A stretch of DNA of 64,000 nucleotides from a virus (IMGVR_UViG_3300009502_000023:37731-101730); one strand, 5' to 3'. Counted from the first letter of the stretch, positions 3,314 through 37,892 are shown. Numbers and translations: made by a program. Notes: generated from the sequence alone by a model not told the origin.

Positions 3314-4537
3314 ATGAAGAAGTTCGATCTTAGAAAGTTGTTGGATGGTATCACTTATGAACCGCAGTTGAATTTGATTGCGACGATGTTTAGTGATGTT
3401 GACAGATATAATCTTCCGGTCACTAAACATCTTTTCAATATCGATAATAAATATTACTTGCTTGCAGAAAATAATTATGCTAAGGTTGTTGTTGGGCCTG
3501 ATTATAATTTTATCTTTCTAAAGCAAGATCGGTTTGGTTTGACTACTGGATTCTTTCAGAGATGGGGTAAGACAAAAGATGATAATCCAGATTTTGCACC
3601 CATTGGTCCAGAAATTCTTGATATTGAAATTAGTGTAAATGGTTGTCCGAATGCTTGTCCGTTCTGTTATAAGAATAACAAGAATGTTCCACCAACCAAT
3701 ATGACATTAGATACGTTTAAATCCATTATTAATAAAATGCCTCGAGTATTAACCCAAGTTGCTTTTGGTATTACTGGAGTCAAAACAAATCCTGATTTCC
3801 TTCCTATGATGAAGTATTGTCGTGAAGTTGGGATTCTTCCAAACTTTACATTGAGCGGAATTGATCTTGATGATACTATGGCAGATGAATTATCACAGGT
3901 TGCTGGTGCTCTTGCTGTGAGTGCTTATGCATCTGATAAGAATGTTTGCTATGATACTGTAAAGAAATTTACTGATCGAGGAATGAGTCAAGTTAATATT
4001 CATTTGATGGTCAGTCAACAGACATTGCCTTTTGTAAAAGAGGTTTTAGCTGATCGATTGACTGATCCACGACTCGAGAACATGCATGCAATTGTATTCC
4101 TTGGTGTTAAACCTAAAGGTCGAGCTAAGAATGAATATACTCCATTGACTCTTCAAGAGTATGGTGATATCGTTCAGTACTCATTGAAAGCAGGATTTAA
4201 TTTTGGATTTGATTCATGTTCAGCTCCAAAATTTGAATCTGTAATTAAAGATACTGCTATTGATATTGAACCAGTTATTAAAGATCAATTGATTGAGTCT
4301 AGTGAATCCTGTGAGAGTTCATTATTCTCAAGTTATATCAATACTGCTGGCGAGTATTGGCATTGTTCTTTTGCTGAGAATGAGGATGGTCAGAATTTTG
4401 TAGATGTTACCAAGGCAAAGGACTTCATTGTCGATGTCTGGTATTCTGATACAGTTAAGAAATTCAGAGAGAATTCAATCAATACAATGGTTGGTGGATG
4501 TCGTCGTTGTACAGTATTCCCATCGATCAACCCATAG
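3314..4537 (+). CDS. radical SAM enzyme, function unknown (possibly linked to nucleotide/7-deazaguanine modification)
   Basis: CPNACPFC = CxxxCxxC 4Fe-4S/AdoMet cluster motif near N-terminus; 407 aa. Confidence 0.6.
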   Translation: MKKFDLRKLLDGITYEPQLNLIATMFSDVDRYNLPVTKHLFNIDNKYYLLAENNYAKVVVGPDYNFIFLKQDRFGLTTGFFQRWGKTKDDNPDFAPIGPEILDIEISVNGCPNACPFCYKNNKNVPPTNMTLDTFKSIINKMPRVLTQVAFGITGVKTNPDFLPMMKYCREVGILPNFTLSGIDLDDTMADELSQVAGALAVSAYASDKNVCYDTVKKFTDRGMSQVNIHLMVSQQTLPFVKEVLADRLTDPRLENMHAIVFLGVKPKGRAKNEYTPLTLQEYGDIVQYSLKAGFNFGFDSCSAPKFESVIKDTAIDIEPVIKDQLIESSESCESSLFSSYINTAGEYWHCSFAENEDGQNFVDVTKAKDFIVDVWYSDTVKKFRENSINTMVGGCRRCTVFPSINP

Positions 4538-4601: not shown

Positions 4602-4892
4602 ATGAATAAGAAAGATACACCATTACAATGTAGAATCGAAGAAGATTGTTTAGTTATTCGTATTGGAATATCCACGCTGGTTTTTGCTGCCGGTGAAGCT
4701 TTAGATGGTTGTAAGATTATAGATGAAGCTCAGTGGGCAAAAGATGTTGTTTGTGAAATGAATAATGAAAATGAAATCGGTGAAACTATTGTAACAGATA
4801 TGATTGATAGAGCAACAAATATGGCTCTTGATAACGGAAGTGAAGCAGTTGATTATGAATTGCAAGGACATCAAATTGACAAGGAAGATTAA
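4602..4892 (+). CDS. hypothetical acidic protein
   Basis: ORF 96 aa after AAGGAG RBS; translationally coupled (TAATG) to next gene. Confidence 0.45.
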   Translation: MNKKDTPLQCRIEEDCLVIRIGISTLVFAAGEALDGCKIIDEAQWAKDVVCEMNNENEIGETIVTDMIDRATNMALDNGSEAVDYELQGHQIDKED

Positions 4893-5371
4893 TGAAAACA
4901 AGAACTAGTTTGGTTAGTAACTCAAGTAGCAGTAGTTTTATTTTGGTAGGAATTCCTATCGATATAGATCAATTGAATGCCACTCATATCATCCCACACT
5001 TTACAGATAAAAATAAGGTCACTCTTAGTACTGTAGTAATGGGAAAATATCTAGGTGAAGGACAAGATGTATTTTGTTTGACTGATCCTGGTCAATTAGC
5101 ATTTATTAAAGATAATCCTGAATTTTTTGGAAATGTATTTATCAAATGTTTATATGTGTATGATCCGTGTGAAAGCAACATGCACACACTGAAAGAGTTA
5201 ATTGATGCTGTTGGACCAGATGCTGTAAAGATGGTAGTTACTGGTGGCACAGCAGATCAAAGCAGTAGCTGGTCTCTTGATGCAATGCTTGAAAATTATA
5301 CAGATGAACTTACTGAGAAAACAAAGAAAGATGTTGCAGAAACGTATAGAAAGAAATATAATCCAAAATGA
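4892..5371 (+). CDS. leader-family protein 1 (N-terminal MKTRTSLVSNSSSSSF leader + unique 140-aa body)
   Basis: ORF 159 aa; shares 16-aa N-terminus with 6 other ORFs; TAATG overlap with upstream gene. Confidence 0.65.
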   Translation: MKTRTSLVSNSSSSSFILVGIPIDIDQLNATHIIPHFTDKNKVTLSTVVMGKYLGEGQDVFCLTDPGQLAFIKDNPEFFGNVFIKCLYVYDPCESNMHTLKELIDAVGPDAVKMVVTGGTADQSSSWSLDAMLENYTDELTEKTKKDVAETYRKKYNPK

Positions 5372-5727
5372 AAACAAGAAATAGTTTAGTATCTAATAGT
5401 TCATCATCAAGTTTCATTATTGCATATAAACGGGGCGAGAAGTGTAAACATTGTGGTCGAAGCGATCCTGATCTTGAACAAATTATTAGAAGTAAAAGTA
5501 GCGAAAATAGTAACTATGAAGTATACGCTACTGGTAAAGATGAAATTATCAAACAAATGAAAACAGGATATGATGGAAATCCTGCCGAGATGACTGAACT
5601 ATTTGATAAGATTAATAAACTTGATGATGATTATACTGTTATTTATTTCAGTATGAGTCATCATGATTTTGAGTTTATTGATGATGTTACTTCAGCGGGT
5701 CAATTACTTTATAGAGGTGAAAGTTGA
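5368..5727 (+). CDS. leader-family protein 2 (MKTRNSLVSNSSSSSF leader; body with CKHCGRSDPD)
   Basis: ORF 119 aa; ATGA overlap with upstream gene. Confidence 0.65.
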   Translation: MKTRNSLVSNSSSSSFIIAYKRGEKCKHCGRSDPDLEQIIRSKSSENSNYEVYATGKDEIIKQMKTGYDGNPAEMTELFDKINKLDDDYTVIYFSMSHHDFEFIDDVTSAGQLLYRGES

Positions 5728-6290
5728 AAACAAGAACTAGTTTAGTTAGTAATTCAAGTTCGTCTAGTTTTATTATTCATTTTAAGAGCATGTGGGCAAA
5801 ACCAGAAGATAGGAATCTTCGTCTTTTAACTAAAGATGAAGAAAATATTCTTAAAGAGAATGGATATAAACTTTGTGAATGTGGTCATCCATCTCATCTT
5901 GAGAATAGATCAGATATTAATTGGATTACAAATAAAAAACAGTTAACAAAAGCTTATGTAGCTAGTTATGCTAAGTCTATTACTTGTAATCAGAATGATG
6001 AAATCTATTTTCTGTTAAAGAATAATATTCCTTTTACTGCAACTGCACATTATGGGCATGAAACTTATATTTATCCTAGAAATTCAAAATATTTGTTTTT
6101 ATTCAACAATCCTGGATGTGATGCTGAAACATATCATCAAAGAGATACTGAGAAACAATTATCTCTATTAGTAAAAGATCATTTAAAATATCCAGTAGCT
6201 GAAAAAATTTTAGTTTCAAAGTTTATTAAGAAAGAAGAAAAATGGGAAAAAGAGTTTAAGGAGGAACACGAAAATGAAGATAAGGAATAG
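5724..6290 (+). CDS. leader-family protein 3 (MKTRTSLVSNSSSSSF leader)
   Basis: ORF 188 aa; TTG start overlapping previous TGA, GAGGTGA RBS. Confidence 0.6.
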   Translation: MKTRTSLVSNSSSSSFIIHFKSMWAKPEDRNLRLLTKDEENILKENGYKLCECGHPSHLENRSDINWITNKKQLTKAYVASYAKSITCNQNDEIYFLLKNNIPFTATAHYGHETYIYPRNSKYLFLFNNPGCDAETYHQRDTEKQLSLLVKDHLKYPVAEKILVSKFIKKEEKWEKEFKEEHENEDKE

Positions 6291-6903
6291 TTTAGTAAGT
6301 AATAGTTCATCGAGTAGTTTTATTTGCAGTCGTCCTATCTTTGAAGTTGCAAGTGATATGTGGAAGGCAATTACTTCAGATGATTGGGATGAAGACAGAA
6401 CACAATCAGATGCTCGTTATAAGAACCTTCTTCCTCTGATTGAAAAGATCTGTAAAGATTCAGATGTTCAATCTGGAAAGTATGGTATCTCTATGCCTTC
6501 TTGTAATTATGATACTGAGATCTTAGTTGTTGATGGTAAGTGTCATATCAACACGTGTAATAATCATGATTGGTCTGGGATTGAAGGATTAGATTATGTA
6601 CCAGAAGATTGGGATCAACCAGAAGAAACTTTTGGAGAAAAATTTTCTGGCGAACGAAAAGAACGACCAAAGATTGAAATTCCATCTGGTACTTTCTTCT
6701 ATACCATTGCTCATGGTGGATCACTTCTTAGATCGAGTAATAAAACGATAAAAGGCAAGAAACTTATCTGTAAAAAGTGTCAAGACAAATGGGGTATGCA
6801 GAATTTAGATGCATGGGATCATTCTGGATACAACTACGAAGATCCTGATGGCAACTACTATTGTCCAGAACACTTCATAAAATTAGTAGTAATGCCGAAA
6901 TAA
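6274..6903 (+). CDS. leader-family protein 4 (MKIRNSLVSNSSSSSF leader; Cys-rich body)
   Basis: ORF 209 aa; 17-nt overlap with previous gene. Confidence 0.65.
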   Translation: MKIRNSLVSNSSSSSFICSRPIFEVASDMWKAITSDDWDEDRTQSDARYKNLLPLIEKICKDSDVQSGKYGISMPSCNYDTEILVVDGKCHINTCNNHDWSGIEGLDYVPEDWDQPEETFGEKFSGERKERPKIEIPSGTFFYTIAHGGSLLRSSNKTIKGKKLICKKCQDKWGMQNLDAWDHSGYNYEDPDGNYYCPEHFIKLVVMPK

Positions 6904-6957
6904 TAAGTTCCTGTTGGAATTTAGAATCCAAGTAAAGAAGGTGTCGTAGTATAAATA

Positions 6958-7683
6958 TTACGATACTTTCTTTATTCCTTTTTTTAAGTCATCGCATATC
7001 AAAAATTCTTTAGTTAAAGAGTATTTACATATATGTAATGAATTTTGATACATACTGGAAAGATCGAAATTTATCTTGTTGTTCAATCTACCTTTTACAT
7101 TCACAGTAAATTGAATCTTTGATTTTGGATTGATTCTTGAAACGACTTGTTCGAGTTCGTGTTTCAATCCGGTTCTTAGTAAATCAATATTACTTCCATG
7201 TTTTAGGTGACCAATCAGATGAACACCTTTTGGACTAGTAATCAATGTTTCATAATAACTAGTTCCAAGATCGTCTATCTTATCAGTTTCTAATTCATGT
7301 TCTAAGATCTTCAAAGCATACTGACAATGTTTCATTGAAAGATTTGGTCCAACATCTATGTCTACAATCCAATACTTTGTAAGTTCTGGATGAGTAACAT
7401 ATACAACATTAGTTCTTCCTGTAATTAGTTTTTCAAAGTTAGAACTAGTTAGTTGTATTGAAGATCCTTTTTGATTTCTGATCATGACCGTTTGATCATC
7501 AATCTTCATTAGAAATGCAACGTTTCTTCCATTTATCCATTTTAGCATCTTGTCTTTTACTGATAAGTAGTACTCATAAATTTGTTTCTCGGTTAAACCA
7601 TGAGGATAGAATTTATTTTTAATAATTATATCAGATGGATGAGTTGGAAAAGATTCGTTTAAAAACGCATTAATAATTCTCAT
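6958..7683 (-). CDS. archaeo-eukaryotic primase-polymerase (LigD Pol-domain-like)
   Basis: N-terminal LTEKQIYEYY...GRNVAF resembles LigD-Pol N-terminus; motif I IVDIDV (DxD), motif II SPKGVHLIGH (SGxKGxH-like); only - strand gene in a 60-kb + block. Confidence 0.6.
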   Translation of the reverse strand: MRIINAFLNESFPTHPSDIIIKNKFYPHGLTEKQIYEYYLSVKDKMLKWINGRNVAFLMKIDDQTVMIRNQKGSSIQLTSSNFEKLITGRTNVVYVTHPELTKYWIVDIDVGPNLSMKHCQYALKILEHELETDKIDDLGTSYYETLITSPKGVHLIGHLKHGSNIDLLRTGLKHELEQVVSRINPKSKIQFTVNVKGRLNNKINFDLSSMYQNSLHICKYSLTKEFLICDDLKKGIKKVS

Positions 7684-7907
7684 ATAATTTATTCAGTTCG
7701 TTGACCAACATTGAATAAAAACTGATTACCATATATATTAATTTATGGTAAACCACTCTATTCAAACTTTTTTTGAAATAGATGGTTTTAAAAGATTGTA
7801 TTTTATGTAAGTTCTTGACTCATTTTTTCTTCTGATGATTTATTAATAGTTAACTGATTAAAAAGGAGTTTTAAAACGATGTGTAAATATTAGGAGGAAT
7901 TTAAAGA
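7684..7907. promoter_or_regulatory. divergent AT-rich intergenic region, candidate bidirectional early promoter region
   Basis: 224 bp between divergently transcribed genes; contains TTGACT ... TATTAAT-like elements and AGGAGG RBS for 7908 gene; motif assignment tentative. Confidence 0.2.
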
Positions 7908-8126
7908 ATGTCAAAAATAAGTGTGATATATGACTCATCTCAAGAAATTGAACAGATTGTTAAAGAAGTAGAACAGCATATAGATATGAAGAAAGATGAA
8001 TCAGAAATATATGCTCTCGTTCAAAAAATCATTCAGACAGCTTTTGAAGAAGGTAGAAAATTTCAGAAGCAAATATCAATTAATTCATCCGTTAAAGACA
8101 GTATTATGAGCAAGACAGATATATGA
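7908..8126 (+). CDS. hypothetical protein
   Basis: ORF 72 aa with AGGAGG RBS. Confidence 0.4.
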   Translation: MSKISVIYDSSQEIEQIVKEVEQHIDMKKDESEIYALVQKIIQTAFEEGRKFQKQISINSSVKDSIMSKTDI

Positions 8127-9001
8127 ATACCGAAGATCCAGTAATCTTAGACAAGATTAAGAAATTATTAAATTTAGCAAATCCCAATAACAATGGATCC
8201 GAAGGTGAGATACAGTCGGCATTTACTTTGGCTCAGAAACTTCTCAAAAAACATCATTTGACGATGAGTCAAATAACAGCATATGATGACGATACAACAT
8301 CTGAAGCTGGTATGTTTGATGTTATAGAATCTGAAGCAGCAAAGTTTGCAGCTAATATCTTACCCCGATGGATGGAAACGTTATTAAGATCTGTTAATAC
8401 TATTACTGAAACGAAAACTCTGATTAAGCGATCATCAAGAACAGGTAGTACTTATGGAAACTTAAGTATTGTATTTGTTGGTGACACTATAGATGTTGAA
8501 ACTTCAGTAGAATTATTTCTCTTTCTAAAAGACTCGGTGTCTAAGTTATCTACTGCTCATTCAAACGAGTATGAAAAGAAACACAAATATTGGCGTTCAT
8601 TTGCTGATGGTTGTGCAACTAAAATCTTAGAACGAGCTCAAGAAGTAGAAAAGAAATATTCTGATAAATTCGAAAGAACTCTTGCTGATTTGGATATTTC
8701 TAATAGGGAATTAACTGAAGAAGATGAAGAGGAGCTAGAAGAGATAGATGATGAAATAGAAGATCAGATCAATTCTGAGAATTTCAGTATAGAGTTATAC
8801 AAGAAGTACGAAGATTGTAAAGTTAATAAGATTCTGGAGTACATTGAAAACATCGATGCAGAAGAAGAGAAATCTTCATCTAAAACTGCACGAACAGAGG
8901 TTAACTCATATCAAATGGGTCAAACCGCCGGCGAAACAATACCGCTGTCTATCTCTAAGAAGATAGCTACGGGGAACAAGAGGAAAACTCACCATGCCTA
9001 A
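8123..9001 (+). CDS. hypothetical protein with highly acidic C-terminal region
   Basis: ORF 292 aa, ATGA overlap with upstream gene. Confidence 0.5.
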   Translation: MNTEDPVILDKIKKLLNLANPNNNGSEGEIQSAFTLAQKLLKKHHLTMSQITAYDDDTTSEAGMFDVIESEAAKFAANILPRWMETLLRSVNTITETKTLIKRSSRTGSTYGNLSIVFVGDTIDVETSVELFLFLKDSVSKLSTAHSNEYEKKHKYWRSFADGCATKILERAQEVEKKYSDKFERTLADLDISNRELTEEDEEELEEIDDEIEDQINSENFSIELYKKYEDCKVNKILEYIENIDAEEEKSSSKTARTEVNSYQMGQTAGETIPLSISKKIATGNKRKTHHA

Positions 9002-11560: not shown

Positions 11561-12313
11561 ATGAGTAATAGTAATCTAGAACGAGAGATGTTTAATCGGC
11601 AGCAAGATATCGAATTGTACAAATTCGAGTTTGCTATCATAATTGGTGTTGGTGGAATTGGGAGTTGGGTTGCTTTGAACATGGCATTAACAGGTAATGT
11701 TACTAACATGTTTTTAATTGACCCAGATACGATTGAAAGCAGTAATTTGAATAGAACACCATTCAGATTCTGTGATATCGGTCAACCCAAGGTTGTCGCT
11801 CTAAAGTATTTGATTTTAGAACGACGAGCTGTAAATATTGAAATCTATCAGCAAAAAACAAATGCTGCATTAGCTACAGAAATTGCAGATAAGACTATTA
11901 AGGTTGATCGGTATGCATCTCGAACTAATAAGAAACAAATATCAAACAATGGTGTGATTGTTGATTGTCGAGATGATGTCTATACAGACATGTATGATTT
12001 TCCATACAAGTATTATAAAGTGGGTTATGATGGTTTATCGATAACGATTGATGGAAATCCCAGGAACACAGCAGTCTGGGGTCGAGCCAATGGTTATCGT
12101 CATACGCCATCATTTATTTGTCCTGCACAACTTGCAGCTAACTTGGTAGTTACTGATATTCTGACAATGAAAGATTCTGATGAAACAAATGAGAATGAAA
12201 CAGATACTGTTGAAAATGTAAACGCATTTGATAATAGTGGAAGATTAAACAAAGTCGTAACCTTTGATGTTAAAGATCTCGTCGAGATGATTTACCACAA
12301 GGTTAATCCGTAG
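11561..12313 (+). CDS. ThiF/MoeB/E1-family adenylyltransferase
   Basis: IIIGVGGIGSWVALNMA Rossmann GxGxxG; DPDTIESSNLNRTPF (D.D.VE.SNLNRQ-like); DCRDD (DCTDN-like) motif. Confidence 0.7.
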   Translation: MSNSNLEREMFNRQQDIELYKFEFAIIIGVGGIGSWVALNMALTGNVTNMFLIDPDTIESSNLNRTPFRFCDIGQPKVVALKYLILERRAVNIEIYQQKTNAALATEIADKTIKVDRYASRTNKKQISNNGVIVDCRDDVYTDMYDFPYKYYKVGYDGLSITIDGNPRNTAVWGRANGYRHTPSFICPAQLAANLVVTDILTMKDSDETNENETDTVENVNAFDNSGRLNKVVTFDVKDLVEMIYHKVNP

Positions 12314-13481: not shown

Positions 13482-14552
13482 ATGAATAAGTTATGTGAAT
13501 GCGGTTGCGGAAAAGAAGTAATTAGTGATAAACATAGATTTATCCATGGACACAGTACCAAAGGAAGAAAAGATCTTTATATTAAACGAGCAAAAAATTT
13601 TAAAGAAAAACACGGAGTGGAATATCCGGGCCAACTGGAGAGCGTTCAGAATAAATCTAAACAAACATGTTTAAAAAAATATGGTAAAGAATATACATTC
13701 CAAACCAAATGTGTTAAAGATAAGATTAAGAAAAAATGCTTAGAGAACCTGGGTGTAGAAAATCCAAGTCAATCAGAAATTATTAAAGAGAAAAAAATAC
13801 AAACATATCTAGAAAGTCTAAATGTAGAAAACCCAAGTCAATCAGATATCATTAAAAAGAAAAAAAGTCAAACAAATTTAGAACATTGTGGTTTTGAAAA
13901 TCCAATGCAATCACAAAATGTTCAAGAAAAATCAAAACAGACAAATATAAATCATCGCGGTGTTGAATATCCGATGCAATCAGATGATGTTCAAGAAAAA
14001 TCAAAACAGACAAATATAAAGAATCGGGGCGTTGAATATCCATTTCGGTCAAAAGAAGTTCAGGAAAAATATAAACGGACATGTGTATATAACTATGGTG
14101 TTGATAATTTTGCAAGGACACCACAATTTAAAGAAATGGCTCGTATCAATAGTATCAGAATGATAGAAAATCAATTAGTTAATGGTGAACCAATGTGTCC
14201 GTTTATTGGTGATCATGAAAGACTATTTTTAAATGAACTTCAACACCACGTAACATATAAAATCATTCGAAATGATATTTCTTTTAGATATATTAAAGGT
14301 AGATTTCCCGATGGTCATATCTCAGAATTAAAACTTTTTATTCAGTTTGATGAGAGAGTTCATTTTGAAAATAAAGAAATGACCATATATAAAGAAGATG
14401 ATACAGATTGTACTCTTCAATTAGCATCTCTTGGTTATATTGTTTTTAGAGTATCTGAAAAACAATGGAATGAAAATAAAGAACAAGTTATCAATCAATT
14501 TAAAGGACTACTAGAATGTCTAAGAGAGCAGCAGTTGGCGACGCCCATTTAA
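13482..14552 (+). CDS. homing-endonuclease-like protein (CxCGCG Zn-ribbon + repeats + PD-(D/E)xK-like FPDGHISELK C-terminus)
   Basis: MNKLCECGCGKEV...GHS N-terminus shared with 5 paralogs; repeated K.Q.YLE.LGVENP.QS modules; 37-nt overlap with sbcD start. Confidence 0.6.
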   Translation: MNKLCECGCGKEVISDKHRFIHGHSTKGRKDLYIKRAKNFKEKHGVEYPGQLESVQNKSKQTCLKKYGKEYTFQTKCVKDKIKKKCLENLGVENPSQSEIIKEKKIQTYLESLNVENPSQSDIIKKKKSQTNLEHCGFENPMQSQNVQEKSKQTNINHRGVEYPMQSDDVQEKSKQTNIKNRGVEYPFRSKEVQEKYKRTCVYNYGVDNFARTPQFKEMARINSIRMIENQLVNGEPMCPFIGDHERLFLNELQHHVTYKIIRNDISFRYIKGRFPDGHISELKLFIQFDERVHFENKEMTIYKEDDTDCTLQLASLGYIVFRVSEKQWNENKEQVINQFKGLLECLREQQLATPI

Positions 14553-15544
14553 GCGGATTTCAATCTGATACGTTGGATAAAAAAGGTTTACCTAAACGTT
14601 TAGGTTTCATTATAAAGTCATTAGACTTTATAGTTGATTTTTGCAATCAAAAGAATATTTTTGATTTTGATTTTTTAGGCGATCTTGTAAATGATAAAAG
14701 TATTATTTATACCGTAGCACAAGATGCTTTTAAAGATTTTCTTGTTAGACGGAAGAATTGCAGATTCAGAATCATTAGTGGTAACCATGATCTATCCTCT
14801 ACTGGTGATTTGCAAAAAAGTGCAATATCTGTATTCTCGGAATATCCTAACGTGAAATGTTTTGTTGGCGGACCGGAAGTAATTGATAATATCACTTACA
14901 TTCCTTTCACCGAGAAATTTTTAGAAACAATTAAAATATCACCACCATCTGATATTTTAATCACACATCTTGGCTTGAATGAAGCACATCTTCAATCCGG
15001 GTTGTCTAAAGTTGATAAGATTTCAATTAAAGATTTATCTAAATTTAAATTAGCTTTGATGGGGCACTATCATCGCCCACAGGATTTTAGCAATGGAACT
15101 ACTCATGTGTGGTACGCGGGATCTTTAACGAATAAAGATTGGAACGATAAGAATGAGCAGAAAAGATTTCTTATCTATGATACTGAAACACTAGAAGTAG
15201 AATCTGTTCCTATTGATTGTGGTATTCCTCAATTTATTGAGTTGACTATCAATAATGAAACTGATAAGATAGAAATCTTAAAGCAAGCAGAAATTGCAAA
15301 AAATAATGGAAACAATGTTCGTATTAAAAATAAATCAGAAACAGTAATTAAAGATGAAGTATCTGGTGGCGTTTTAGTTCTTGAACAGCATGATGTGGAT
15401 ATTACCGATAGAGGTATTACCATATCAATGACCAAAGAAGAACAACTTAAGAAATATCTTTCGATTAAAGAAATTCCTGAAGTTGAATGCCCAGAATATT
15501 TGTCTCTGATTGCAAAGTATGATTTATTACACAAGGATGAATAA
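14516..15544 (+). CDS. sbcD: SbcD/Mre11-like nuclease (T4 gp47-like)
   Basis: motifs GDAHL, GDLVND, GNHD, GHYH of Mre11 phosphoesterase; directly upstream of SbcC-like gene. Confidence 0.8.
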   Translation: MSKRAAVGDAHLSGFQSDTLDKKGLPKRLGFIIKSLDFIVDFCNQKNIFDFDFLGDLVNDKSIIYTVAQDAFKDFLVRRKNCRFRIISGNHDLSSTGDLQKSAISVFSEYPNVKCFVGGPEVIDNITYIPFTEKFLETIKISPPSDILITHLGLNEAHLQSGLSKVDKISIKDLSKFKLALMGHYHRPQDFSNGTTHVWYAGSLTNKDWNDKNEQKRFLIYDTETLEVESVPIDCGIPQFIELTINNETDKIEILKQAEIAKNNGNNVRIKNKSETVIKDEVSGGVLVLEQHDVDITDRGITISMTKEEQLKKYLSIKEIPEVECPEYLSLIAKYDLLHKDE

Positions 15545-18132
15545 TGCAAGACATTTATATTGAAAAGATTCGTCTTAAGAATGTTAGATGTCACCATGAA
15601 ATGGAAATGGATTTTCCTGTAGATAGTTTTACCTTGATACTAGGAAAAAATGGAGCTGGAAAATCCACAATTCCAAAAGCCGTATGTATGGCATTATATG
15701 GTGATGATGGTTCTGTTAAAGGTGATAGATTATCCATATCTGATATGGTTAATGATAAGGTCAAGAAAGATCTTGAAATTGTTTTAAATTTCAGAGTTGT
15801 TGAAGGTGAACGAACCGATAACTATGAAATTCAACTTTACCAGGAACATAAGAAATATCATAATAAATTCTTTCTGTTAAAAAATGGAGTTGATATTTCT
15901 GGTAAGACAAAAACCGAAACATATGAAGCAATTGAACATCTTATTTATCCTCGTGATGTTTTCATGAATACCGTATACTTCACGCAGCAGGTAAAAGACT
16001 TCTTTACAGCGTTAACTAATTCTGAACAGAAGATGATATTCGATGCTATCTTATCAACTCAAGATTATCGTCTATACTATAACAATGCAGATAAAGCATT
16101 AAAGCAACTTACTGCGGAATATAATTCTGCTGATTCTATGTTATCTGGTATGCTTGCTGCAGTTGATATTAAGAAACAATCTATTACACAATTTCTTGCC
16201 AGTAAACAAAAGGCAGTTGATAATAATGCAGTCATTCTTTCTGATTTGACTCAGAAGAAAATCAATAAAGAGAATGAACTTCAAGTTCAGCAAGATGAAA
16301 AAGAAACTAACAATTTTGACCAGGTTAAAATTGATAGTTTAAATAGTAATCTTTATAAGTTACAGTCTGAACGAGATGCTATTCAATTGACTATTGATAC
16401 AGCAATTAAGAAGTTAAATACACAACAAGAGTTAGATGTATCAACAAAGAAATCTGAACTTCTTGATATCAAAGCTAAAGCCAGAGTAGAAATTAGTGAT
16501 AAGTTTAATAAAGAAATTGCCAGTCTAAATACTCAGTTAAATGTGATTCTCACATCAATTTCTGAAACTGAGAAATTATATGATACTTCTTCATTGTTTA
16601 AAGATCATAGTTCTTTTAATCTTGAAAAGCAAAAAGAGATTAATTTTGTAAATAAAGAACTTGGCGGATTAGATTCTTTATTCTCTACTCATATTATCGA
16701 AGATGAAAAAAGAGAAAGACTCAGAATCATAGAATCTAATATTCAAGATATTAAGGATAAAGCATCTAGAATTAAAGAGAATGTTGCTACTCTAAAATCT
16801 AAAATTTCTGGTTTAGAGAAAACCATTAATGAAGATGAATCTAAACTAAATGAACCAACACCGATATGTTCAAAGTGTCGAAGACCATTTCATGGTTCAG
16901 ATGGTGTTACTACAATTAAAGAATCTATTGAAGTTCTGAAAAAAGAAGTAGCTGATTTAAATTCTAAGATTCAAATTCATATACCAGAGATGGATTCTCT
17001 TAGAACTAATTATCAAGAAACTGCTGCTCTCAAGGATTCAACCAATACATCTTACAATGAAAAGATTCAAGAAGTTATCAATAAGAAAACATCTCAATCA
17101 GAAACTTTAATTCGTAAACGAGAGTTGATTCAATTGGAGATTATTGATCATAAGAATCAGATTGATTCTCGGGTTCAAGAAATGTTAGCTAAGAAAGAAG
17201 TTGCAACTACTGAACTTAAGAAGAAACAGATTCTTATTGAAAATCAAATCTCTGGTATTGATAAAACATTAGAAACTAAATTGGGTGTCATAGAACATAA
17301 TTATACAAAAGATATGGAATCCATTACACAAGAACATATTAAAAAGTATGATATTCTTCGTGAAAAGTGCAACTTGGATTTTAATAATCAAGTAATAACA
17401 TTAGATCTTCAAATAACCAATATCAGTACGGAGCTAGTAACACTTGATATTCAGCGCAAGAAGATGGTCGAAATAAATGCTGCTATCCAAACTTTAAACG
17501 CTGAATTAAAAATGTGCATGGAACGAATTATTGAGTGTCAAAATTTCGTATATGATGATACTCAAATTCAAAAACTAAGTTCTGATATTACTGATAACGA
17601 AGCGATTTTGAAAAATTTAGTAGACAAGAAAAAAGGAATTCAAAGAGAGATTAAGATTCTTGAATTTTGGAAAGAATCATTCTCTGATACCGGTATTAAG
17701 AGTATGTTGATTGATATGGCAATTCCTCATATGAATGAGTCCGTTGCTATTGCTCTAGAGAAGATTGTACCTGGTGTTTTCACAGTTTCTTTTGATACTT
17801 TGAAGATGACCAAATCGGGTGACGTCAGAGATAAATTCAATGTCAACATTCTTCATAATATTAAAGGTACGAATAGTCATAAGAAATTATCTGGTGGCGA
17901 AAAGAGAATAGTTGATTTATCCTGTATGGAAGCACTAAAATCTTTAGCTGAAAGATTATACGGGAAGAGAATTCACAATTCATTTTATGATGAAGCGTTG
18001 GATTCTTTAGATGATGATAGCTGTCAAGCATTTGGACAGGCAATCAGAATCTTATCCGCAGGAAAGAATATTACTTTAATTGCACATAAAGCTGCTGAAA
18101 ATGTTGAACCTGATAGAGTGTTCACACTGTAA
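15544..18132 (+). CDS. sbcC: SbcC/Rad50-like SMC ATPase (T4 gp46-like)
   Basis: Walker A GKNGAGKST, long coiled coil with CSKCRRPF zinc hook, signature LSGGEKR, Walker B FYDEALDSLDDD. Confidence 0.85.
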   Translation: MQDIYIEKIRLKNVRCHHEMEMDFPVDSFTLILGKNGAGKSTIPKAVCMALYGDDGSVKGDRLSISDMVNDKVKKDLEIVLNFRVVEGERTDNYEIQLYQEHKKYHNKFFLLKNGVDISGKTKTETYEAIEHLIYPRDVFMNTVYFTQQVKDFFTALTNSEQKMIFDAILSTQDYRLYYNNADKALKQLTAEYNSADSMLSGMLAAVDIKKQSITQFLASKQKAVDNNAVILSDLTQKKINKENELQVQQDEKETNNFDQVKIDSLNSNLYKLQSERDAIQLTIDTAIKKLNTQQELDVSTKKSELLDIKAKARVEISDKFNKEIASLNTQLNVILTSISETEKLYDTSSLFKDHSSFNLEKQKEINFVNKELGGLDSLFSTHIIEDEKRERLRIIESNIQDIKDKASRIKENVATLKSKISGLEKTINEDESKLNEPTPICSKCRRPFHGSDGVTTIKESIEVLKKEVADLNSKIQIHIPEMDSLRTNYQETAALKDSTNTSYNEKIQEVINKKTSQSETLIRKRELIQLEIIDHKNQIDSRVQEMLAKKEVATTELKKKQILIENQISGIDKTLETKLGVIEHNYTKDMESITQEHIKKYDILREKCNLDFNNQVITLDLQITNISTELVTLDIQRKKMVEINAAIQTLNAELKMCMERIIECQNFVYDDTQIQKLSSDITDNEAILKNLVDKKKGIQREIKILEFWKESFSDTGIKSMLIDMAIPHMNESVAIALEKIVPGVFTVSFDTLKMTKSGDVRDKFNVNILHNIKGTNSHKKLSGGEKRIVDLSCMEALKSLAERLYGKRIHNSFYDEALDSLDDDSCQAFGQAIRILSAGKNITLIAHKAAENVEPDRVFTL

Positions 18133-18911: not shown

Positions 18912-19328
18912 ATGACCCCACAAAAGACTCCCGTTCGAATCAACATCCAGCAATCTAATCAAAAGACAATTATTACATATGATATGAAAGTTGATAACAA
19001 TATTCGATCAATCGCAAGACGCGGACATGATATTGCTAAAACATTTAGAAGTATTGGTATTGTGTTTAAAAGAATCATTCCTGCATCTACTGATATATCG
19101 GTAAGAAAACAATTCAAGCTTCCTGTAGATTCTGATTTGATTTGTGTCGAACTGAAATACAACACTGACAAATCTGATTCAGATAAACTACTATTGATTA
19201 ATGATATTAAAGATCAACTTATGAATTTAAATTCTTATTCTGTGGTTAATGAAGGTATTTACAAATATGATTTATCAACACAGGTTTATAGATTATTACT
19301 AAAGATTAATGAAAATGTATCAAAATGA
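18912..19328 (+). CDS. hypothetical protein
   Basis: ORF 138 aa with AAGGAG RBS. Confidence 0.4.
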   Translation: MTPQKTPVRINIQQSNQKTIITYDMKVDNNIRSIARRGHDIAKTFRSIGIVFKRIIPASTDISVRKQFKLPVDSDLICVELKYNTDKSDSDKLLLINDIKDQLMNLNSYSVVNEGIYKYDLSTQVYRLLLKINENVSK

Positions 19329-19867
19329 ACAATGAATTGATAATCGTTGGATGTGGAACTATAGGCGCATCATTGTCATTAAATCTAGCAAGAAAAAAAT
19401 TGATTTCTAAATTAACAATTTATGATTTTGATGTTGTTAGTTTTGGTTCTGAGAAATCAATTTATCCTTTTAATTCGTGCGCTTCTGGGTTATCAAAAGT
19501 TGAAAATATAAAATTTAGATGTAAAAAAATTAATCCTGATTTAGATATTGTTGTAAATGAAGAGCGAGTATTAAAACCTATAGTTACAGATCAATTTATT
19601 ATTGATTGTCGTGATTGTAAAACACCCAATTTAAATTCTAAAATTCGATTATCACTAGATGGTAGTATTCTGTATATTGATAGTAGAAAAAAGATTCCAG
19701 AAACTAAAAATTATTATAGATACTATTATAGCAGAAATCCAGAATTTATAGAAACAGCAAATCAAATTATCATTAATTATTTGGTTAACGATGAATATAC
19801 ATGTAATCAGTTGAGAGTATATAATACTGAAACGTCTGAATATCATATCTTGCCAACGGAGAATTGA
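19325..19867 (+). CDS. short ThiF/E1-like adenylyltransferase paralog
   Basis: IIVGCGTIGASLSLNLA GxGxxG; LTIYDFDVV; DCRDC motif, paralogous to DCRDD of the 11561 gene. Confidence 0.5.
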   Translation: MNNELIIVGCGTIGASLSLNLARKKLISKLTIYDFDVVSFGSEKSIYPFNSCASGLSKVENIKFRCKKINPDLDIVVNEERVLKPIVTDQFIIDCRDCKTPNLNSKIRLSLDGSILYIDSRKKIPETKNYYRYYYSRNPEFIETANQIIINYLVNDEYTCNQLRVYNTETSEYHILPTEN

Positions 19868-20794: not shown

Positions 20795-21322
20795 ATGACA
20801 AAAAAGAAAAAAAATCCATTTACTTATATATGTAACGATTTATTACCCGGTACTGATTATTCATTTCATCATTTGATTGAATTGGGTGTTTTATACGGAT
20901 ATACCTATGATGAAGTGATGAAAGCATTATTTACAGAAATTCAAAAGAAGAATCCTAGAATTGTTTTGGGATTTAACAAGAATGCTTTCTTGAATCCAAA
21001 AAATAGATCTAATAAAAAAGTAATTGAACCTATAAAAACAGAAACAGAAATAATTGCTGAAGCAGTTATCAAGAAAAATAAAGAATTTATTCAGAAATGG
21101 ATAGAGACTGAATTTGATAAAAAGCTAGAATCACTGGTTCAGAAATATGTGGTATCTGAGTTTAAGGAAGAAGTTCTTCCGGTTCTTATCGACCGCATCG
21201 ATGGTAAGTTTAAAAACATTCAAGAATCACATACAAAATCTATTAAGGTAGAAGTTATTCAAATTCTATCTGATATGATTATCAAAGCAGCTCAAGAGGA
21301 GATTCCAAGTAATGAAGATTAA
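20795..21322 (+). CDS. hypothetical protein
   Basis: ORF 175 aa. Confidence 0.45.
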   Translation: MTKKKKNPFTYICNDLLPGTDYSFHHLIELGVLYGYTYDEVMKALFTEIQKKNPRIVLGFNKNAFLNPKNRSNKKVIEPIKTETEIIAEAVIKKNKEFIQKWIETEFDKKLESLVQKYVVSEFKEEVLPVLIDRIDGKFKNIQESHTKSIKVEVIQILSDMIIKAAQEEIPSNED

Positions 21323-24161: not shown

Positions 24162-24170
24162 CTTAAAATG

Positions 24171-24198
24171 GGGCGGGACCACAAACCGCCCTTCTTTC
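24171..24198 (+). terminator. short GC hairpin terminator
   Basis: GGGCGG ... CCGCCC followed by TTCTTT. Confidence 0.4.
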
Positions 24199-24219
24199 AG
24201 AATGATTTTATAGGTAATT

Positions 24220-25164: not shown

Positions 25165-25177
25165 AGGGAGATATCAC

Positions 25178-36020: not shown

Positions 36021-37892
36021 GTGAACAGAATACAGGATCTGAAAAAACAAATCGAATATCATTCAGATTTATATTATAACAAATCACAGCCGGAAATCAC
36101 TGATTTTGAATTTGATAATCTTGTAAGTGAATTAAACTCGATGGGTGGTTCGGTTGAAGTTGGTGCTCCAACATATGGTAAAAAGGTTACTCATAGCAGC
36201 AAGATGGGATCATTAGATAAAGATACTTCTTGTGATGTGATCATAGCTTGGGCTAACAAATATACTAATGGTAAAGTTGTTGTTGAACCGAAAATTGATG
36301 GTCTTGCTATTGAACTTACTTATATCAATGGAAATTTAAAACAAGCAGCAACCCGCGGAGATGGTAATGTTGGTCAAGATGTTACTGATAATGTTAGAAT
36401 GATTAGTTCAATTCCTAAAACATTATCTAATAAATTAACCGTCAAGGTTCGTGGTGAAATTCTGATGCTTCGATCTGTATTTAATGAATTTCTGAAATTG
36501 GGTGTTGAGGATTTATCAAATCCAAGAAATGCAGCATCTGGTTCATTGATGGTTAAAGATCCAGCAATTACCGGATCGAGGAACTTAAATTTCATTTGTT
36601 ATGATACTGTATCAAGCGAATCTTTTACAACCGAAGCAGATAAGCTTCAATGGATTCATACTAATCTTCCTGAGATCCAATTGATAGAATGGCATCTTGA
36701 AGATATTTCCAATTTTAAAACTATTTCTGAGAAGTGGGAAATCAACCGGTCTGTACTTAATTATGATATTGATGGTCTTGTAATTTCATTAAATAGTATT
36801 TCTGATCAAGAAGAAGCTGGTTGGACTGAGAAATGCCCAAGAGGAAAAATGGCATTTAAATTTAAACCAGAACAAAAGAATGCAAAAATATTATCTATTG
36901 ATTGGCAAGTTGGTCGGACTGGTCGTTTGACTCCTGTAGTTTATATTGAACCAACTGTAATTGGTGGTTCTATAAATTCTAAGGCGACACTACACAATGC
37001 AAAAATGTTTAATGATAAAAATATAGCTGTAAATGATACTGCTTTGATTGAAAGAGCTGGGGATGTCATTCCTCAGTTAATTAGAGTTGTTGAAAGAAAT
37101 TCTGATAGAGTGGTTCAGTCACTACCAACTATATGTCCTTCTTGCAAACATCCGGTGGTGTGGGATAAACGCGGAGTTAATATTTGGTGTTTGAATGCTG
37201 ACTGTCCTACTCGGTTTATAGAGTTGGTCATTCATTATATCAAAACACTTGATATTCTTGGTGTTGGGGAAGGAATTATTACTGCATTGTGTGATGCTGG
37301 GTATGTTAAAAAATTATCTGATCTATATGATGTTACATTAGAACAGATAAAGAGCGTAACCGGTGGTGATAAATCTTCAGAAAAAGTCTATAATGCAATT
37401 CATTCGAAGAAAGAAATACCGCTAGAAATTTTTCTTGATTCTTTGGGAATCAGTGGTTTAGGAACTTCTACTTCGAAAGATATAGCTAAAAAATTTAAAA
37501 CTTTACAATCAGTAAGAAATATCGGAAAGAGTCAATTACTCTCAATGGAAGGTATACAGGCTTTAACCGAGGCAAAAATTATTGATGGATTAGCAAATCG
37601 CTCGTATATTATAGATGAATTACTAAAGAGAATCAGTGTTATGAGTACAAAAGAATCAACTGGTTCGTTGGCTGGTAAATCGTTTTGTTTAACCGGATCA
37701 ATGTCAAAATCCAGAAAAGAAATAGAAAAAACGATCATGTCCAAAGGCGGAGAAGCAGAATCTGGAGTTAAAGCAGGATTAACTTATTTGGTTCAATCCG
37801 ACCCAACTAGTACCTCATCTAAGAGCGAGAAAGCACTGAAATTGGGTGTGGTGATAATTTCAGAAGATGATCTTTGGAGAATGATGGAGTGA
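36021..37892 (+). CDS. ligA: NAD-dependent DNA ligase
   Basis: adenylation motif EPKIDGLAIEL (KxDG), OB/Zn (CPSCKHPV...C..DC), HhH and C-terminal BRCT-like region. Confidence 0.85.
   Translation: MNRIQDLKKQIEYHSDLYYNKSQPEITDFEFDNLVSELNSMGGSVEVGAPTYGKKVTHSSKMGSLDKDTSCDVIIAWANKYTNGKVVVEPKIDGLAIELTYINGNLKQAATRGDGNVGQDVTDNVRMISSIPKTLSNKLTVKVRGEILMLRSVFNEFLKLGVEDLSNPRNAASGSLMVKDPAITGSRNLNFICYDTVSSESFTTEADKLQWIHTNLPEIQLIEWHLEDISNFKTISEKWEINRSVLNYDIDGLVISLNSISDQEEAGWTEKCPRGKMAFKFKPEQKNAKILSIDWQVGRTGRLTPVVYIEPTVIGGSINSKATLHNAKMFNDKNIAVNDTALIERAGDVIPQLIRVVERNSDRVVQSLPTICPSCKHPVVWDKRGVNIWCLNADCPTRFIELVIHYIKTLDILGVGEGIITALCDAGYVKKLSDLYDVTLEQIKSVTGGDKSSEKVYNAIHSKKEIPLEIFLDSLGISGLGTSTSKDIAKKFKTLQSVRNIGKSQLLSMEGIQALTEAKIIDGLANRSYIIDELLKRISVMSTKESTGSLAGKSFCLTGSMSKSRKEIEKTIMSKGGEAESGVKAGLTYLVQSDPTSTSSKSEKALKLGVVIISEDDLWRMME

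What the first reader, a model, noticed from the sequence alone, without database searches (positions are those of the whole stretch)
6958..7683. Lone antisense gene encoding a LigD-Pol-like primase-polymerase, in a genome that also carries NAD-ligase and Mre11/Rad50
The only - strand gene in 60 kb encodes an archaeo-eukaryotic primase-polymerase with LigD polymerase-domain motifs (DxD in IVDIDV; SPKGVHLIGH). The window also encodes LigA (36021) and SbcCD (14516-18132). Together these resemble an end-repair or NHEJ-like toolkit, or a primase for replication initiation. The inverted orientation and the 224-bp divergent regulatory region suggest separate (early) control.
Basis: partly seen in the sequence, partly recalled or inferred. 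Interest (0 to 1): 0.5.

Follow-up and report, generated by a model that had tools for sequence, protein, structure and literature searches.

The report
Phage-only compact LigD-type repair polymerase
The lone reverse-strand gene encodes a small DNA-repair-type polymerase related to the polymerase part of bacterial ligase D; it belongs to a family found almost only in uncultured large phages, and this branch has lost several features that define the bacterial end-joining enzyme.

Summary
Window 6958-7683 (-) is a real 241-aa gene under purifying selection. It is the only credible minus-strand gene in the first ~62 kb, and this arrangement is conserved in relatives.

The LigD-polymerase-like assignment is well supported by profile-profile alignment (98% probability), a confident model (pLDDT 92.5), Foldseek hits and conserved catalytic residues D108/D110/D207/H155.

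The 'NHEJ toolkit' reading is not supported:
- No Ku and no ATP-dependent ligase were found in the 64 kb.
- LigA and SbcCD lie 7-28 kb away in ordinary phage modules.
- One 5'-phosphate-pocket lysine of LigD polymerase is a conserved Glu (E32); the other is lost.

About 450 clusters are known, all from metagenomes or viral contigs of up to 314 kb. None occur in 50,697 GenBank phages. Other branches are fused or adjacent to ATP-dependent DNA ligases and keep the ribonucleotide-selecting His. The window branch has Tyr95 there, so I predict dNTP use.

Best explanation (about 0.5): short-patch fill-in or end extension at phage DNA nicks, gaps or breaks before ligation. The main rival is a PrimPol-like DNA primase. 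This is a new variant of a known kind, of moderate interest.

The parts
6958..7683 (-). Gene for a 241-aa compact LigD-polymerase-type AEP. Catalytic residues are D108, D110 and D207, with the motif II His at H155. Tyr95 occupies the sugar-selector position and E32 the position of the 5'-phosphate-pocket Lys26.
7684..7907 (.). 224-bp divergent intergenic region between the AEP gene and the 72-aa gene that opens the long plus-strand block. It must hold the AEP promoter. A region of 196-256 bp sits at the same place in relatives.
7726..7751 (.). AT-rich palindrome TTACCATATAT/ATTTATGGTAA. Its arms lie 43-67 bp upstream of the AEP start codon. The core CATAAATTAATATATAT is identical in L005 and L007 and is not a recurrent motif in the window. 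It may be an operator or promoter element (inferred).
7750..7788 (.). Imperfect inverted repeat (17-nt arms) in the intergenic region. It is retained in L005, where the outer arm bases are changed on both sides. Its role is unknown.
6931..6976 (.). Hairpin straddling the AEP stop codon, between the convergent genes. It looks like a terminator. Hairpins at the same place occur in L005 and L008 (z -2.0 and -4.6).
36021..37892 (+). NAD-dependent DNA ligase LigA, the only ligase seen in the window. It is proposed here as the sealing partner by inference only; there is no linkage evidence.

Best explanation
The gene encodes a minimal, virus-specific member of the LigD-polymerase (Prim-PolD/Prim-PolC) branch of the AEP superfamily.

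Shown:
- It has the AEP palm fold, with the metal-binding triad D108/D110/D207 and the motif II His155.
- It is conserved under purifying selection.
- It is transcribed on its own from a conserved divergent intergenic region.

Inferred mechanism: it is a metal-dependent, template-guided nucleotidyl transferase. It extends 3'-OH ends at nicks, short gaps or broken ends of phage DNA so that a ligase can seal them. In other branches of the family the ligase is an ATP-dependent DNA ligase, either fused to the polymerase or encoded beside it. Some of those fusions also carry 3'-end-healing domains (LigD phosphoesterase, 2H phosphoesterase).

In the window branch that coupling is gone. The ribonucleotide-selecting His (Mt His111, Pa His651) is Tyr95, and the second 2'-OH contact (Mt Thr236) is Leu216. 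I therefore predict that this enzyme inserts dNMPs rather than rNMPs, and that the nick is sealed by the phage LigA or a host ligase. The canonical 5'-phosphate pocket is altered (Lys26 to Glu32, Lys16 lost), so end recognition probably differs from bacterial NHEJ and is independent of Ku.
For: Fold and family:
- AF2 model with pLDDT 92.5.
- The Foldseek top 16 PDB hits are all LigD PolDom, Prim-PolC or the archaeal NHEJ polymerase, at E 2e-9 to 7e-7 and TM 0.6-0.69. Other AEPs start at 7e-4.
- Family profiles hit Mt-PolDom at 6e-5 and 1e-7.
- hhalign against four solved PolDom-type sequences gives 98.1% probability and E 1.3e-13 over 215 columns.
- 20 of 31 family members match PF21686.

Catalytic residues: D108, D110 and D207 are Asp in 165-176 of 180 family members, and H155 is His in 165.

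Ligase link:
- The eight long relatives scanned carry ATP DNA ligase and/or LigD_N phosphoesterase domains (seven have the ligase domain), some also with 2H or HAD domains. Seven match PF21686 by Pfam, all above its cut-off.
- A ~340-aa ATP-dependent DNA ligase lies within two genes of the stand-alone polymerase in 5 of 34 non-redundant loci.
- One locus has a cyclic-phosphate-processing cREC domain gene next door.

Sugar selector: Y95 aligns with Mt His111, the residue shown to set rNTP preference, whereas Tyr marks dNTP-preferring AEPs (PMC7072297). All 19 long multidomain relatives tabulated, 9 of them scanned with Pfam, and 4 of 5 ligase-adjacent loci have His. 26 of the 30 closest homologues have Tyr.

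Against a replicative role: no helicase, Toprim, DNA polymerase or Ku family recurs among 149 neighbours.
Against: - There are no biochemical data.
- The window branch itself has no adjacent ligase or end-healing gene. Its function is therefore extrapolated from relatives that are only 25-30% identical.
- The most frequent neighbours across the family are glycosyltransferases and methyltransferases, not repair genes. This is unexplained.
- The His/Tyr versus ligase correlation is inherited by lineage, so the cases are not independent events.
- A Tyr selector is also what a DNA-primer-making PrimPol would have.
- The loss of the 5'-phosphate-pocket lysines weakens the analogy with gap or break recognition by LigD polymerase.
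- Residue mapping rests on profile alignment, not on superposed coordinates.
Confidence: 0.5

Rival explanations
1. It is a PrimPol-like DNA primase or repriming enzyme. It would synthesise short DNA primers de novo for phage replication initiation or for restart downstream of lesions.
For: - It belongs to the AEP superfamily.
- Tyr at the selector position is what dNTP-using PrimPol and Pfu-p41 have.
- No other primase, hexameric helicase or DNA polymerase is seen in the 64-kb window.
- Jumbo phages with multisubunit RNA polymerase have been noted to lack any recognisable primase (PMC7824862), and this phage encodes beta and beta' subunits.
Against: - Viral replicative primases are usually fused to, or encoded next to, a replicative helicase (PMC4889955). 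No helicase family recurs among 149 neighbours.
- The protein is a single 241-aa domain without a Zn-finger or PriCT module.
- Its closest solved relatives are repair polymerases, not primases.
- Relatives are fused to ligases.
- The gene sits in a variable accessory region, far from any replication module.
Confidence: 0.2
2. It is part of a Ku-dependent NHEJ system, as in bacteria, together with LigA and SbcCD.
For: - It resembles the LigD polymerase domain.
- The window encodes LigA and SbcCD.
- Mycobacteriophages are known to encode Ku (my own knowledge: Pitcher et al. 2006).
Against: - No Ku was found in any of the 50 window ORFs scanned, which include every unshadowed ORF of 175 aa or more, nor among recurrent neighbour families.
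- No ATP-dependent (LigD-type) ligase is in the window.
- Mt Lys26 is a conserved Glu and Lys16 is lost.
- Loop 1 is shortened, and the 113-132 hairpin and C-terminal ~40 residues of PolDom are missing.
- SbcCD is syntenic with recombination-type genes, not with the polymerase.
Confidence: 0.07
3. It works on RNA ends, extending or repairing cleaved RNA such as tRNA cut by host anticodon nucleases, together with end-healing and sealing enzymes.
For: - Fused relatives carry 2H/Acb1-like phosphoesterase and LigD phosphoesterase domains that act on 2',3'-cyclic or 3'-phosphate ends.
- Some of the associated ligases also score on the RNA_ligase model.
- A cREC cyclic-phosphate-processing gene is adjacent in L012.
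- Canonical LigD polymerase adds ribonucleotides.
Against: - The window branch has Tyr95 and Leu216 instead of the 2'-OH-contacting His and Thr.
- No RNA ligase or healing enzyme is nearby in the window.
- The associated ligases score best as DNA ligases.
Confidence: 0.08
4. It has a role tied to the glycosylation and modification genes that flank it in many relatives. One possibility is repair synthesis specialised for hypermodified phage DNA. Another is a nucleotidyl transfer that does not act on nucleic acid.
For: - Pfam glycosyltransferase families (Glycos_transf_1 in 10 neighbours) are the commonest hits within three genes in 34 loci.
- A GT1 gene is the very next gene in four loci whose polymerases have diverged to about 50% identity to the subfamily reference.
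- Sugar-biosynthesis clusters end at the polymerase gene in L001 and L004.
- QueC, dCMP deaminase and methyltransferase genes are also nearby.
- The window phage encodes FolE and Gat-QueC, which belong to 7-deazaguanine DNA modification.
Against: - No such genes flank the window gene.
- Adjacency may simply reflect a shared accessory island.
- The active site is that of a templated polymerase.
- The 124-aa HAD-like neighbour best resembles a small HAD protein of unknown function, and only weakly (1xpj, E 0.035).
Confidence: 0.1

Closest known systems
LigD polymerase domain (Prim-PolD / PolDom) of bacterial NHEJ, e.g. M. tuberculosis Rv0938 (PDB 2iru, 3pky) and P. aeruginosa LigD (2fao)
   Same: - Same fold and best structural match.
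- The DxD...D metal triad and motif II His align.
- The N-terminal N-P-x-x-hydrophobic and G-x-T-x-x-x-I-x-x-Y-Y motifs align.
- A hydrophobic wedge followed by a basic residue (V66/M67, R69, against F63/F64, K66) is retained.
- The YSL motif after motif III is retained.
- Some family members are fused to an ATP ligase and a phosphoesterase domain, as in LigD.
   Different: - It is about 50 residues shorter. Loop 1 is cut by about 6 residues, and the 113-132 hairpin and the C-terminal ~40 residues are absent.
- Lys26 is Glu32 and Lys16 is Asp18/Asn23.
- His111 is Tyr95 and Thr236 is Leu216 in the window branch.
- Arg244 and Arg246 are Thr224 and Lys225.
- A family-specific conserved Cys230 is present.
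- It is stand-alone, with no Ku and no ATP ligase in the window.
- It is confined to viruses.
Mycobacterial Prim-PolC (PDB 5op0, 6sa0), the LigC-associated short-gap-filling polymerase
   Same: It is a stand-alone LigD-type polymerase that works with a separately encoded ligase. Structural match is E 6e-8 with TM 0.68. In fused relatives the I-Y-K-R segment parallels I73-Y74-(Q)-K76-R77.
   Different: It lacks Loop 3, the C-terminal element that defines Prim-PolC and its gap specificity; the phage protein ends about 100 residues earlier. The 5'-phosphate pocket N20/K23/K35 is not conserved. The window branch is predicted to use dNTPs rather than rNTPs.
Human PrimPol and archaeal PriS (Pfu-p41), which are dNTP-using AEPs
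   Same: A Tyr sits at the sugar-selector position. The protein is a single catalytic AEP core.
   Different: Structural similarity is far weaker, with PriS-type hits at E of 1e-3 or worse. There is no UL52-type Zn finger and no PriL-like partner.
Phage and plasmid replicative AEP primase-helicases (poxvirus D5, BFK20 gp43, NrS-1 gp28, pRN1 ORF904)
   Same: They share the AEP catalytic core and are encoded by mobile elements.
   Different: There is no helicase, PriCT or Zn domain. Structural matches are weak: D5 at E 7e-4 and NrS-1 at 6e-3. The best BFVD viral hits reach only E 2e-4 with TM about 0.4.

Membership tests
AEP (primase-polymerase) superfamily | AEP palm/RRM-like catalytic fold | tested here: met
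   The AF2 model has pLDDT 92.5. All significant Foldseek PDB hits are AEPs.
AEP (primase-polymerase) superfamily | Motif I DxD, motif II (G-x-H) and motif III Asp | tested here: met
   D108, D110, H155 and D207 are present and retained in 165-176 of 180 family members. They align with Mt D137, D139, the motif II His and D227.
LigD polymerase domain clade (Prim-PolD/Prim-PolC; Pfam PF21686) | Closer to LigD-type polymerases than to any other AEP branch | tested here: met
   The Foldseek top 16 hits are all LigD-type (E 2e-9 to 7e-7), and the next AEP is at 7e-4. hhalign gives 98.1% probability.
LigD polymerase domain clade (Prim-PolD/Prim-PolC; Pfam PF21686) | Score above Pfam's gathering threshold for PF21686 (27.4 bits) | tested here: not met
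   The window protein scores 20.7 bits, E 3.4e-4. 20 of 31 close homologues match at E of 0.01 or better. Fused relatives score 30.9-47.7 bits.
LigD polymerase domain clade (Prim-PolD/Prim-PolC; Pfam PF21686) | 5'-phosphate-binding pocket (Mt N13, K16, K26; Prim-PolC N20, K23, K35) | tested here: not met
   By profile alignment K26 corresponds to E32, which is Glu in 145 of 180 members. K16 corresponds to D18 or N23. Only N13 is retained, as H15 or Asn. Coordinates were not superposed.
LigD polymerase domain clade (Prim-PolD/Prim-PolC; Pfam PF21686) | Ribonucleotide-selecting His (Mt H111, Pa H651) and Thr/Ser 2'-OH contact (Mt T236, Pa S768) | tested here: not met
   The window protein has Y95 and L216 at these columns. 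Other family branches keep the His: 66 of 180 members, including all 19 long multidomain relatives tabulated.
LigD polymerase domain clade (Prim-PolD/Prim-PolC; Pfam PF21686) | Fusion to, or operon with, an ATP-dependent DNA ligase | tested here: not met
   No ATP ligase was found in the 64-kb window by tblastn or by an HMM of the family's partner ligase, nor by Pfam scans. The feature is met in relatives, as fusions and as adjacency in 5 of 34 loci.
LigD polymerase domain clade (Prim-PolD/Prim-PolC; Pfam PF21686) | Loop 1 and Loop 2 elements that mediate break synapsis | tested here: inconclusive
   In the alignment Loop 1 is about 6 residues shorter, while the basic residues of Loop 2 (K197, R199, K203) are roughly retained. 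A structural superposition is needed.
Bacterial two-component NHEJ (Ku + LigD) | A Ku homologue encoded in the same genome or operon | tested here: not met
   No Ku family hit occurred in any of the 50 window ORFs scanned, which include every unshadowed ORF of 175 aa or more. None appeared among families shared by two or more of 149 neighbours. The rest of the genome lies outside the window and could not be tested.
Viral replicative AEP primases | Fusion to or adjacency with a replicative helicase, or a PriCT or Zn-binding domain | tested here: not met
   The protein is a single 241-aa domain. No helicase family appears among recurrent neighbours. The rule itself comes from PMC4889955.
Viral replicative AEP primases | De novo primer synthesis | not testable with these tools
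   This requires biochemistry.

The most novel reading that the evidence does not exclude
Large uncultured phages carry their own Ku-independent DNA end- or gap-repair module, derived from LigD. It would rescue phage genomes nicked or cut by host nucleases such as restriction enzymes or CRISPR. The window lineage has re-tooled the polymerase from ribo- to deoxyribonucleotide insertion (His to Tyr) and uncoupled it from the ATP-dependent ligase. This would be repair as a counter-defence strategy, using a virus-exclusive enzyme family.
Probability: 0.2. Interest if true: 0.7.

Novelty: new variant of a known kind. Interest (0 to 1): 0.5.

Why it matters
LigD-type polymerases are known as bacterial and archaeal NHEJ and excision-repair enzymes. 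This analysis shows a sizeable sister family: about 450 clusters at 50% identity.

- It is essentially confined to uncultured large phages.
- It is absent from 50,697 GenBank phage records.
- It is nearly absent from representative genomes of 185,579 species (two partial hits in metagenome-assembled genomes).
- It has no close structural match among viral protein models in BFVD.

The family spans stand-alone 230-aa proteins, ligase-adjacent pairs and giant ligase-polymerase-phosphoesterase fusions. It therefore offers a natural series for studying how end-repair modules are built and taken apart.

The His-to-Tyr switch at the known sugar-selector position gives a direct, cheap biochemical prediction. 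If the enzymes repair phage DNA damaged by host defences, they would add a repair-based counter-defence to phage biology. If they prime replication, they could fill the 'missing primase' gap noted for some jumbo phages that encode their own RNA polymerase.

Tried and rejected
- DNA and protein searches of the GenBank phage collection, using the locus, the protein and two other family members, found no relatives. No annotated phage could be used for context.
- PHROGs gave only noise.
- Single-sequence PDB searches were too weak for the window protein and for a fused member's polymerase domain. Profiles were needed.
- The AT-rich element upstream of the gene is not a recurrent promoter motif in the window: 2 matches against 2.4 expected.
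- Sigma-70-like promoter scanning showed no enrichment, so early timing could not be assessed.
- I first read the 124-aa HAD-like protein, which is translationally coupled to the polymerase in L001 and L004, as a polynucleotide 3'-phosphatase. It has no Pfam hit, and its only PDB match is a weak one to a small HAD protein of unknown function (1xpj, E 0.035). It also sits at the end of sugar-biosynthesis clusters. I therefore no longer count it as end-healing evidence.
- The ~340-aa downstream gene family f1 is a group-1 glycosyltransferase, not a ligase, and is unrelated to the true ligase family f28.
- The afdb50 fold library was unavailable.
- Zhu et al. 2006 (the Pa-LigD polymerase structure) is not in the held library. 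Residue roles were taken from PMC7072297 and PMC7442782 instead.
- Alignments A4 and A5 were too diverse for locus scans.

Full report
**1. The observation**

Window 6958-7683 (-) is an ATG-to-stop ORF of 241 aa. It contains the two quoted motifs: IVDIDVG, with D108 and D110, and SPKGVHLIGH, with H155.
- It is not a chance ORF. None of 500 shuffles of 6000-9000 reached 241 aa; the longest was 155 aa.
- It is under purifying selection. dN/dS is 0.11 against the 83%-identical orthologue in L005 at dS 0.9, and 0.13-0.22 against more distant orthologues.
- All other minus-strand ORFs of at least 100 aa before 62 kb are shadows of longer plus-strand genes. It is therefore the only credible minus-strand gene in about 62 kb.
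- The divergent spacer to the next plus-strand gene (7908) is 224 bp.
- LigA (36021-37892) and an SbcD/SbcC-like pair (14516-18132) are confirmed.

**2. What kind of genome this is**

The window is from a large tailed phage of about 32% GC. It encodes:
- a T4-type large terminase (54535-56307);
- full-length RNA polymerase beta' and beta subunits (21312-28465);
- a Dda/RecD-like helicase, an RNase T-like exonuclease, FolE and a Gat-QueC fusion (7-deazaguanine pathway), and two ThiF-like proteins;
- many homing endonucleases and a tRNA-Gly.

It has no DNA-level or protein-level relative for this locus among 50,697 GenBank phage records. Its RNA polymerase beta subunit is only about 25-35% identical to anything there.

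**3. What the protein is**

- Pfam gives only a sub-threshold LigD_Prim-Pol match for the protein itself: 20.7 bits against a cut-off of 27.4.
- A homologue search found 30 metagenomic relatives, all unnamed. In their alignment D108, D110, D207, G89, R90 and R69 are invariant, and H155 is nearly so.
- 20 of 31 members match PF21686.
- The family profile hits M. tuberculosis LigD PolDom (6e-5) and P. aeruginosa LigD (7e-3) in the PDB. A broader 57-sequence profile reaches 1e-7 and also finds the archaeal NHEJ polymerase and Prim-PolC.
- An AlphaFold2 model built on the family alignment is confident: pLDDT 92.5, pTM 0.87.
- Its 16 best Foldseek matches in the PDB are all LigD PolDom, Prim-PolC or the Methanocella NHEJ polymerase (E 2e-9 to 7e-7, TM 0.6-0.69). 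Other AEPs (D5, PriS, CAPP, NrS-1) begin at E 7e-4.
- I verified the Mt-PolDom sequence against PDB 2iru and recovered three more solved sequences. Profile-profile alignment against these four gives 98.1% probability and E 1.3e-13 over 215 columns.

The AEP fold is supported and the catalytic Asp residues are conserved and aligned.

**4. How it differs from LigD polymerase**

The alignment, and a tabulation over 180 family members, show several differences.
- The protein is about 50 residues shorter. Loop 1 is about 6 residues shorter. The long hairpin Mt 113-132 and the C-terminal ~40 residues are missing.
- The 5'-phosphate pocket is not conserved. This pocket is Mt N13/K16/K26, equivalent to Prim-PolC N20/K23/K35 (PMC7442782). 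K26 corresponds to E32, which is Glu in 145 of 180 members. K16 corresponds to D18 or N23.
- The residue that sets ribonucleotide preference is Tyr95 in the window protein. In LigD it is Mt His111 / Pa His651; mutation H651A abolishes sugar discrimination, and Tyr at this site marks dNTP-using AEPs (PMC7072297). The second 2'-OH contact, Mt Thr236, is Leu216.
- Mt Arg244 and Arg246 correspond to Thr224 and Lys225.
- A family-specific Cys230 is invariant among the 31 closest sequences.
- The hydrophobic wedge and the following basic residue seem retained (V66/M67 and the nearly invariant R69, against F63/F64 and K66). The register is uncertain by one residue.

**5. The family and its distribution**

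- An exhaustive profile search of 1.84 billion representatives found 449 clusters at E of 1e-3 or better (297 at 1e-10 or better). Most are stand-alone proteins of 225-235 aa.
- Thirty-four loci were recovered from IMG/VR viral contigs of 16-314 kb.
- Only two partial hits occurred in one genome for each of 185,579 species. Both are metagenome-assembled genomes.
- No GenBank phage has the family.
- The best matches among BFVD viral protein models are other AEP classes, at E of 2e-4 or worse and TM about 0.4.
- A minority of representatives are long multidomain proteins of 551-2290 aa. They combine the polymerase with an ATP-dependent DNA ligase, the LigD 3'-phosphoesterase domain, a 2H/Acb1-like phosphoesterase or a HAD domain. 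These are LigD-like architectures and more.

**6. Genomic context**

In the window clade the gene keeps the same odd arrangement. This clade comprises L005-L009 and the P0012 contig, at 49-83% identity.
- The gene is a lone antisense gene.
- On one side is a variable array of small paralogous genes.
- On the other is a conserved block: a 72-aa gene, a DUF2786/DUF7168 gene, genes of ~200 aa and ~605 aa, ThiF, a ~330-aa gene, then SbcD and SbcC.

In other clades the gene is co-oriented with its neighbours, so the orientation is a lineage trait and not tied to function.

I called and clustered ORFs in 43 loci. I then scanned 149 neighbours, within three genes in 34 non-redundant loci, against Pfam. 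The recurrent families were:
- group-1 glycosyltransferases (10);
- methyltransferases (6);
- ATP-dependent DNA ligase (5; confirmed);
- papain-like peptidase (5);
- DUF2786/DUF7168 (5).

No helicase, Toprim, DNA polymerase or Ku family recurs. One locus has a cyclic-phosphate-processing cREC gene next door. The window itself has no ATP ligase, GT1 or HAD homologue of these partner families.

**7. A correlation worth testing**

All 19 long multidomain relatives tabulated, and 4 of the 5 ligase-adjacent loci, have His at position 95; the fifth has Phe. Of the 19, nine were scanned with Pfam. Among the 30 closest homologues of the window protein, 26 have Tyr, and none of the Tyr-type loci has an adjacent ATP ligase.

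LigD ligase domains preferentially seal nicks with a 3'-monoribonucleotide (PMC7072297). A switch to Tyr together with loss of the ATP-ligase partner would therefore make sense. However, the pattern is inherited by lineage, and I did not count independent events.

**8. Mechanism**

My best-supported account (about 0.5) is as follows. The protein is an active, metal-dependent, template-guided polymerase. It extends 3'-OH ends at nicks, short gaps or breaks in phage DNA so that a ligase can seal them. In this lineage it probably uses dNTPs, acts without Ku, and relies on the phage LigA or a host ligase.
- Shown: fold, catalytic residues, selection, family links to ligases.
- Inferred: substrate, sugar preference, partner ligase, biological role.

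The rivals are:
- a PrimPol-like DNA primase or reprimer (0.2);
- RNA-end repair (0.08);
- a role linked to the flanking glycosylation and DNA-modification genes (0.1).

Evidence for and against each is in the structured fields.

**9. Regulation**

The gene must have its own promoter. A 26-bp AT-rich palindrome (7726-7751) lies 43-67 bp upstream of the start codon. Its core is identical in L005 and L007 but does not recur elsewhere in the window.
- A second inverted repeat (7750-7788) is retained in L005 with changes on both arms.
- A hairpin straddles the stop codon between the convergent genes. Hairpins at the same place are present in L005 and L008.
- Sigma-70-like sites are not enriched.
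- Early timing remains untested.

**10. Verdict**

The LigD-polymerase-like identity is supported. The 'NHEJ toolkit with LigA and SbcCD' idea is not supported.

The protein works like, and descends from, LigD-type polymerases. However, it fails several defining features of the bacterial enzyme: the 5'-phosphate pocket, the ribonucleotide selector, and ligase or Ku linkage. I therefore file it as a new variant of a known kind, in a virus-restricted family that appears undescribed in the literature I could search. Interest is moderate.

Noticed in passing
window 4892-6903, 38371-39198 and 39613-39981: Six otherwise dissimilar ORFs start with the same 17-residue leader, MK[TI]R[TN][SG]LVSNSSSSSF[ILV]. 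Their starts are at 4892, 5368, 5724, 6274, 38371 and 39613. Four of them form the array that converges on the AEP gene, and related paralogue arrays flank the gene in L005-L009. A shared N-terminal tag on diverse proteins recalls capsid-targeting or export leaders. This comparison is from my own knowledge and is untested.
   Followed up: partly
window 21312-28465: Full-length RNA polymerase beta'-like (949 aa) and beta-like (1095 aa) genes are separated by a NUMOD3 homing-endonuclease gene (24220-25164). The beta subunit is only ~25-35% identical to anything in GenBank phages.
   Followed up: partly
window 28422-29102, 44859-46709 and 3314-4537: These genes are GTP cyclohydrolase I (FolE), a glutamine-amidotransferase-QueC fusion, and a radical-SAM/SPASM protein. 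Together they suggest 7-deazaguanine modification of the phage DNA. QueC and dCMP deaminase genes also lie near the polymerase in other family loci.
   Followed up: no
loci L016, L017, L018, L020, L022, L024, L025, L028, L029, L032, L036, L037, L040: A ~340-aa group-1 glycosyltransferase lies within 5 genes of the polymerase gene in 13 distinct loci. It is the very next gene in four of them, even though the other neighbours differ. No explanation was found.
   Followed up: partly
L004 10001-11002 (protein P0021): One homologue carries an N-terminal SET (lysine methyltransferase) domain fused to the polymerase. Several other representatives have N-terminal extensions of 75-125 aa of unknown nature.
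   Followed up: no
proteins P0126, P0154, P0164, P0170, P0171, P0176 (1551-2290 aa): These giant multidomain proteins occur on metagenomic contigs of 21-168 kb. They combine the polymerase with an ATP DNA ligase, the LigD phosphoesterase and an Acb1/2H-like phosphoesterase. Large parts of each protein have no Pfam match.
   Followed up: partly
window 13482-14552, 34961-36007, 53526-54542, 24220-25164, 30186-31022, 51439-52176: There are at least six homing-endonuclease-like genes: three DUF7487 with a C-terminal nuclease, and three NUMOD3. They are scattered between core genes, and their positions differ between relatives.
   Followed up: no
window 8123-9001: A DUF2786/DUF7168 protein is the conserved divergent neighbour of the polymerase gene, two genes away, throughout the window clade. 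Its function is unknown.
   Followed up: no
window 11561-12313 and 19325-19867: There are two ThiF/E1-like adenylyltransferase genes. The first is syntenic in all relatives, between a ~605-aa unknown gene and the SbcCD pair.
   Followed up: no
L004 15142-20778; L007 16598-17752; L008 13058-14248: Relatives carry NAPRTase and ARPP-1/ARPP-2 genes, which are NAD-salvage or reconstitution genes of the type linked to counter-defence, a few kb from the polymerase.
   Followed up: no
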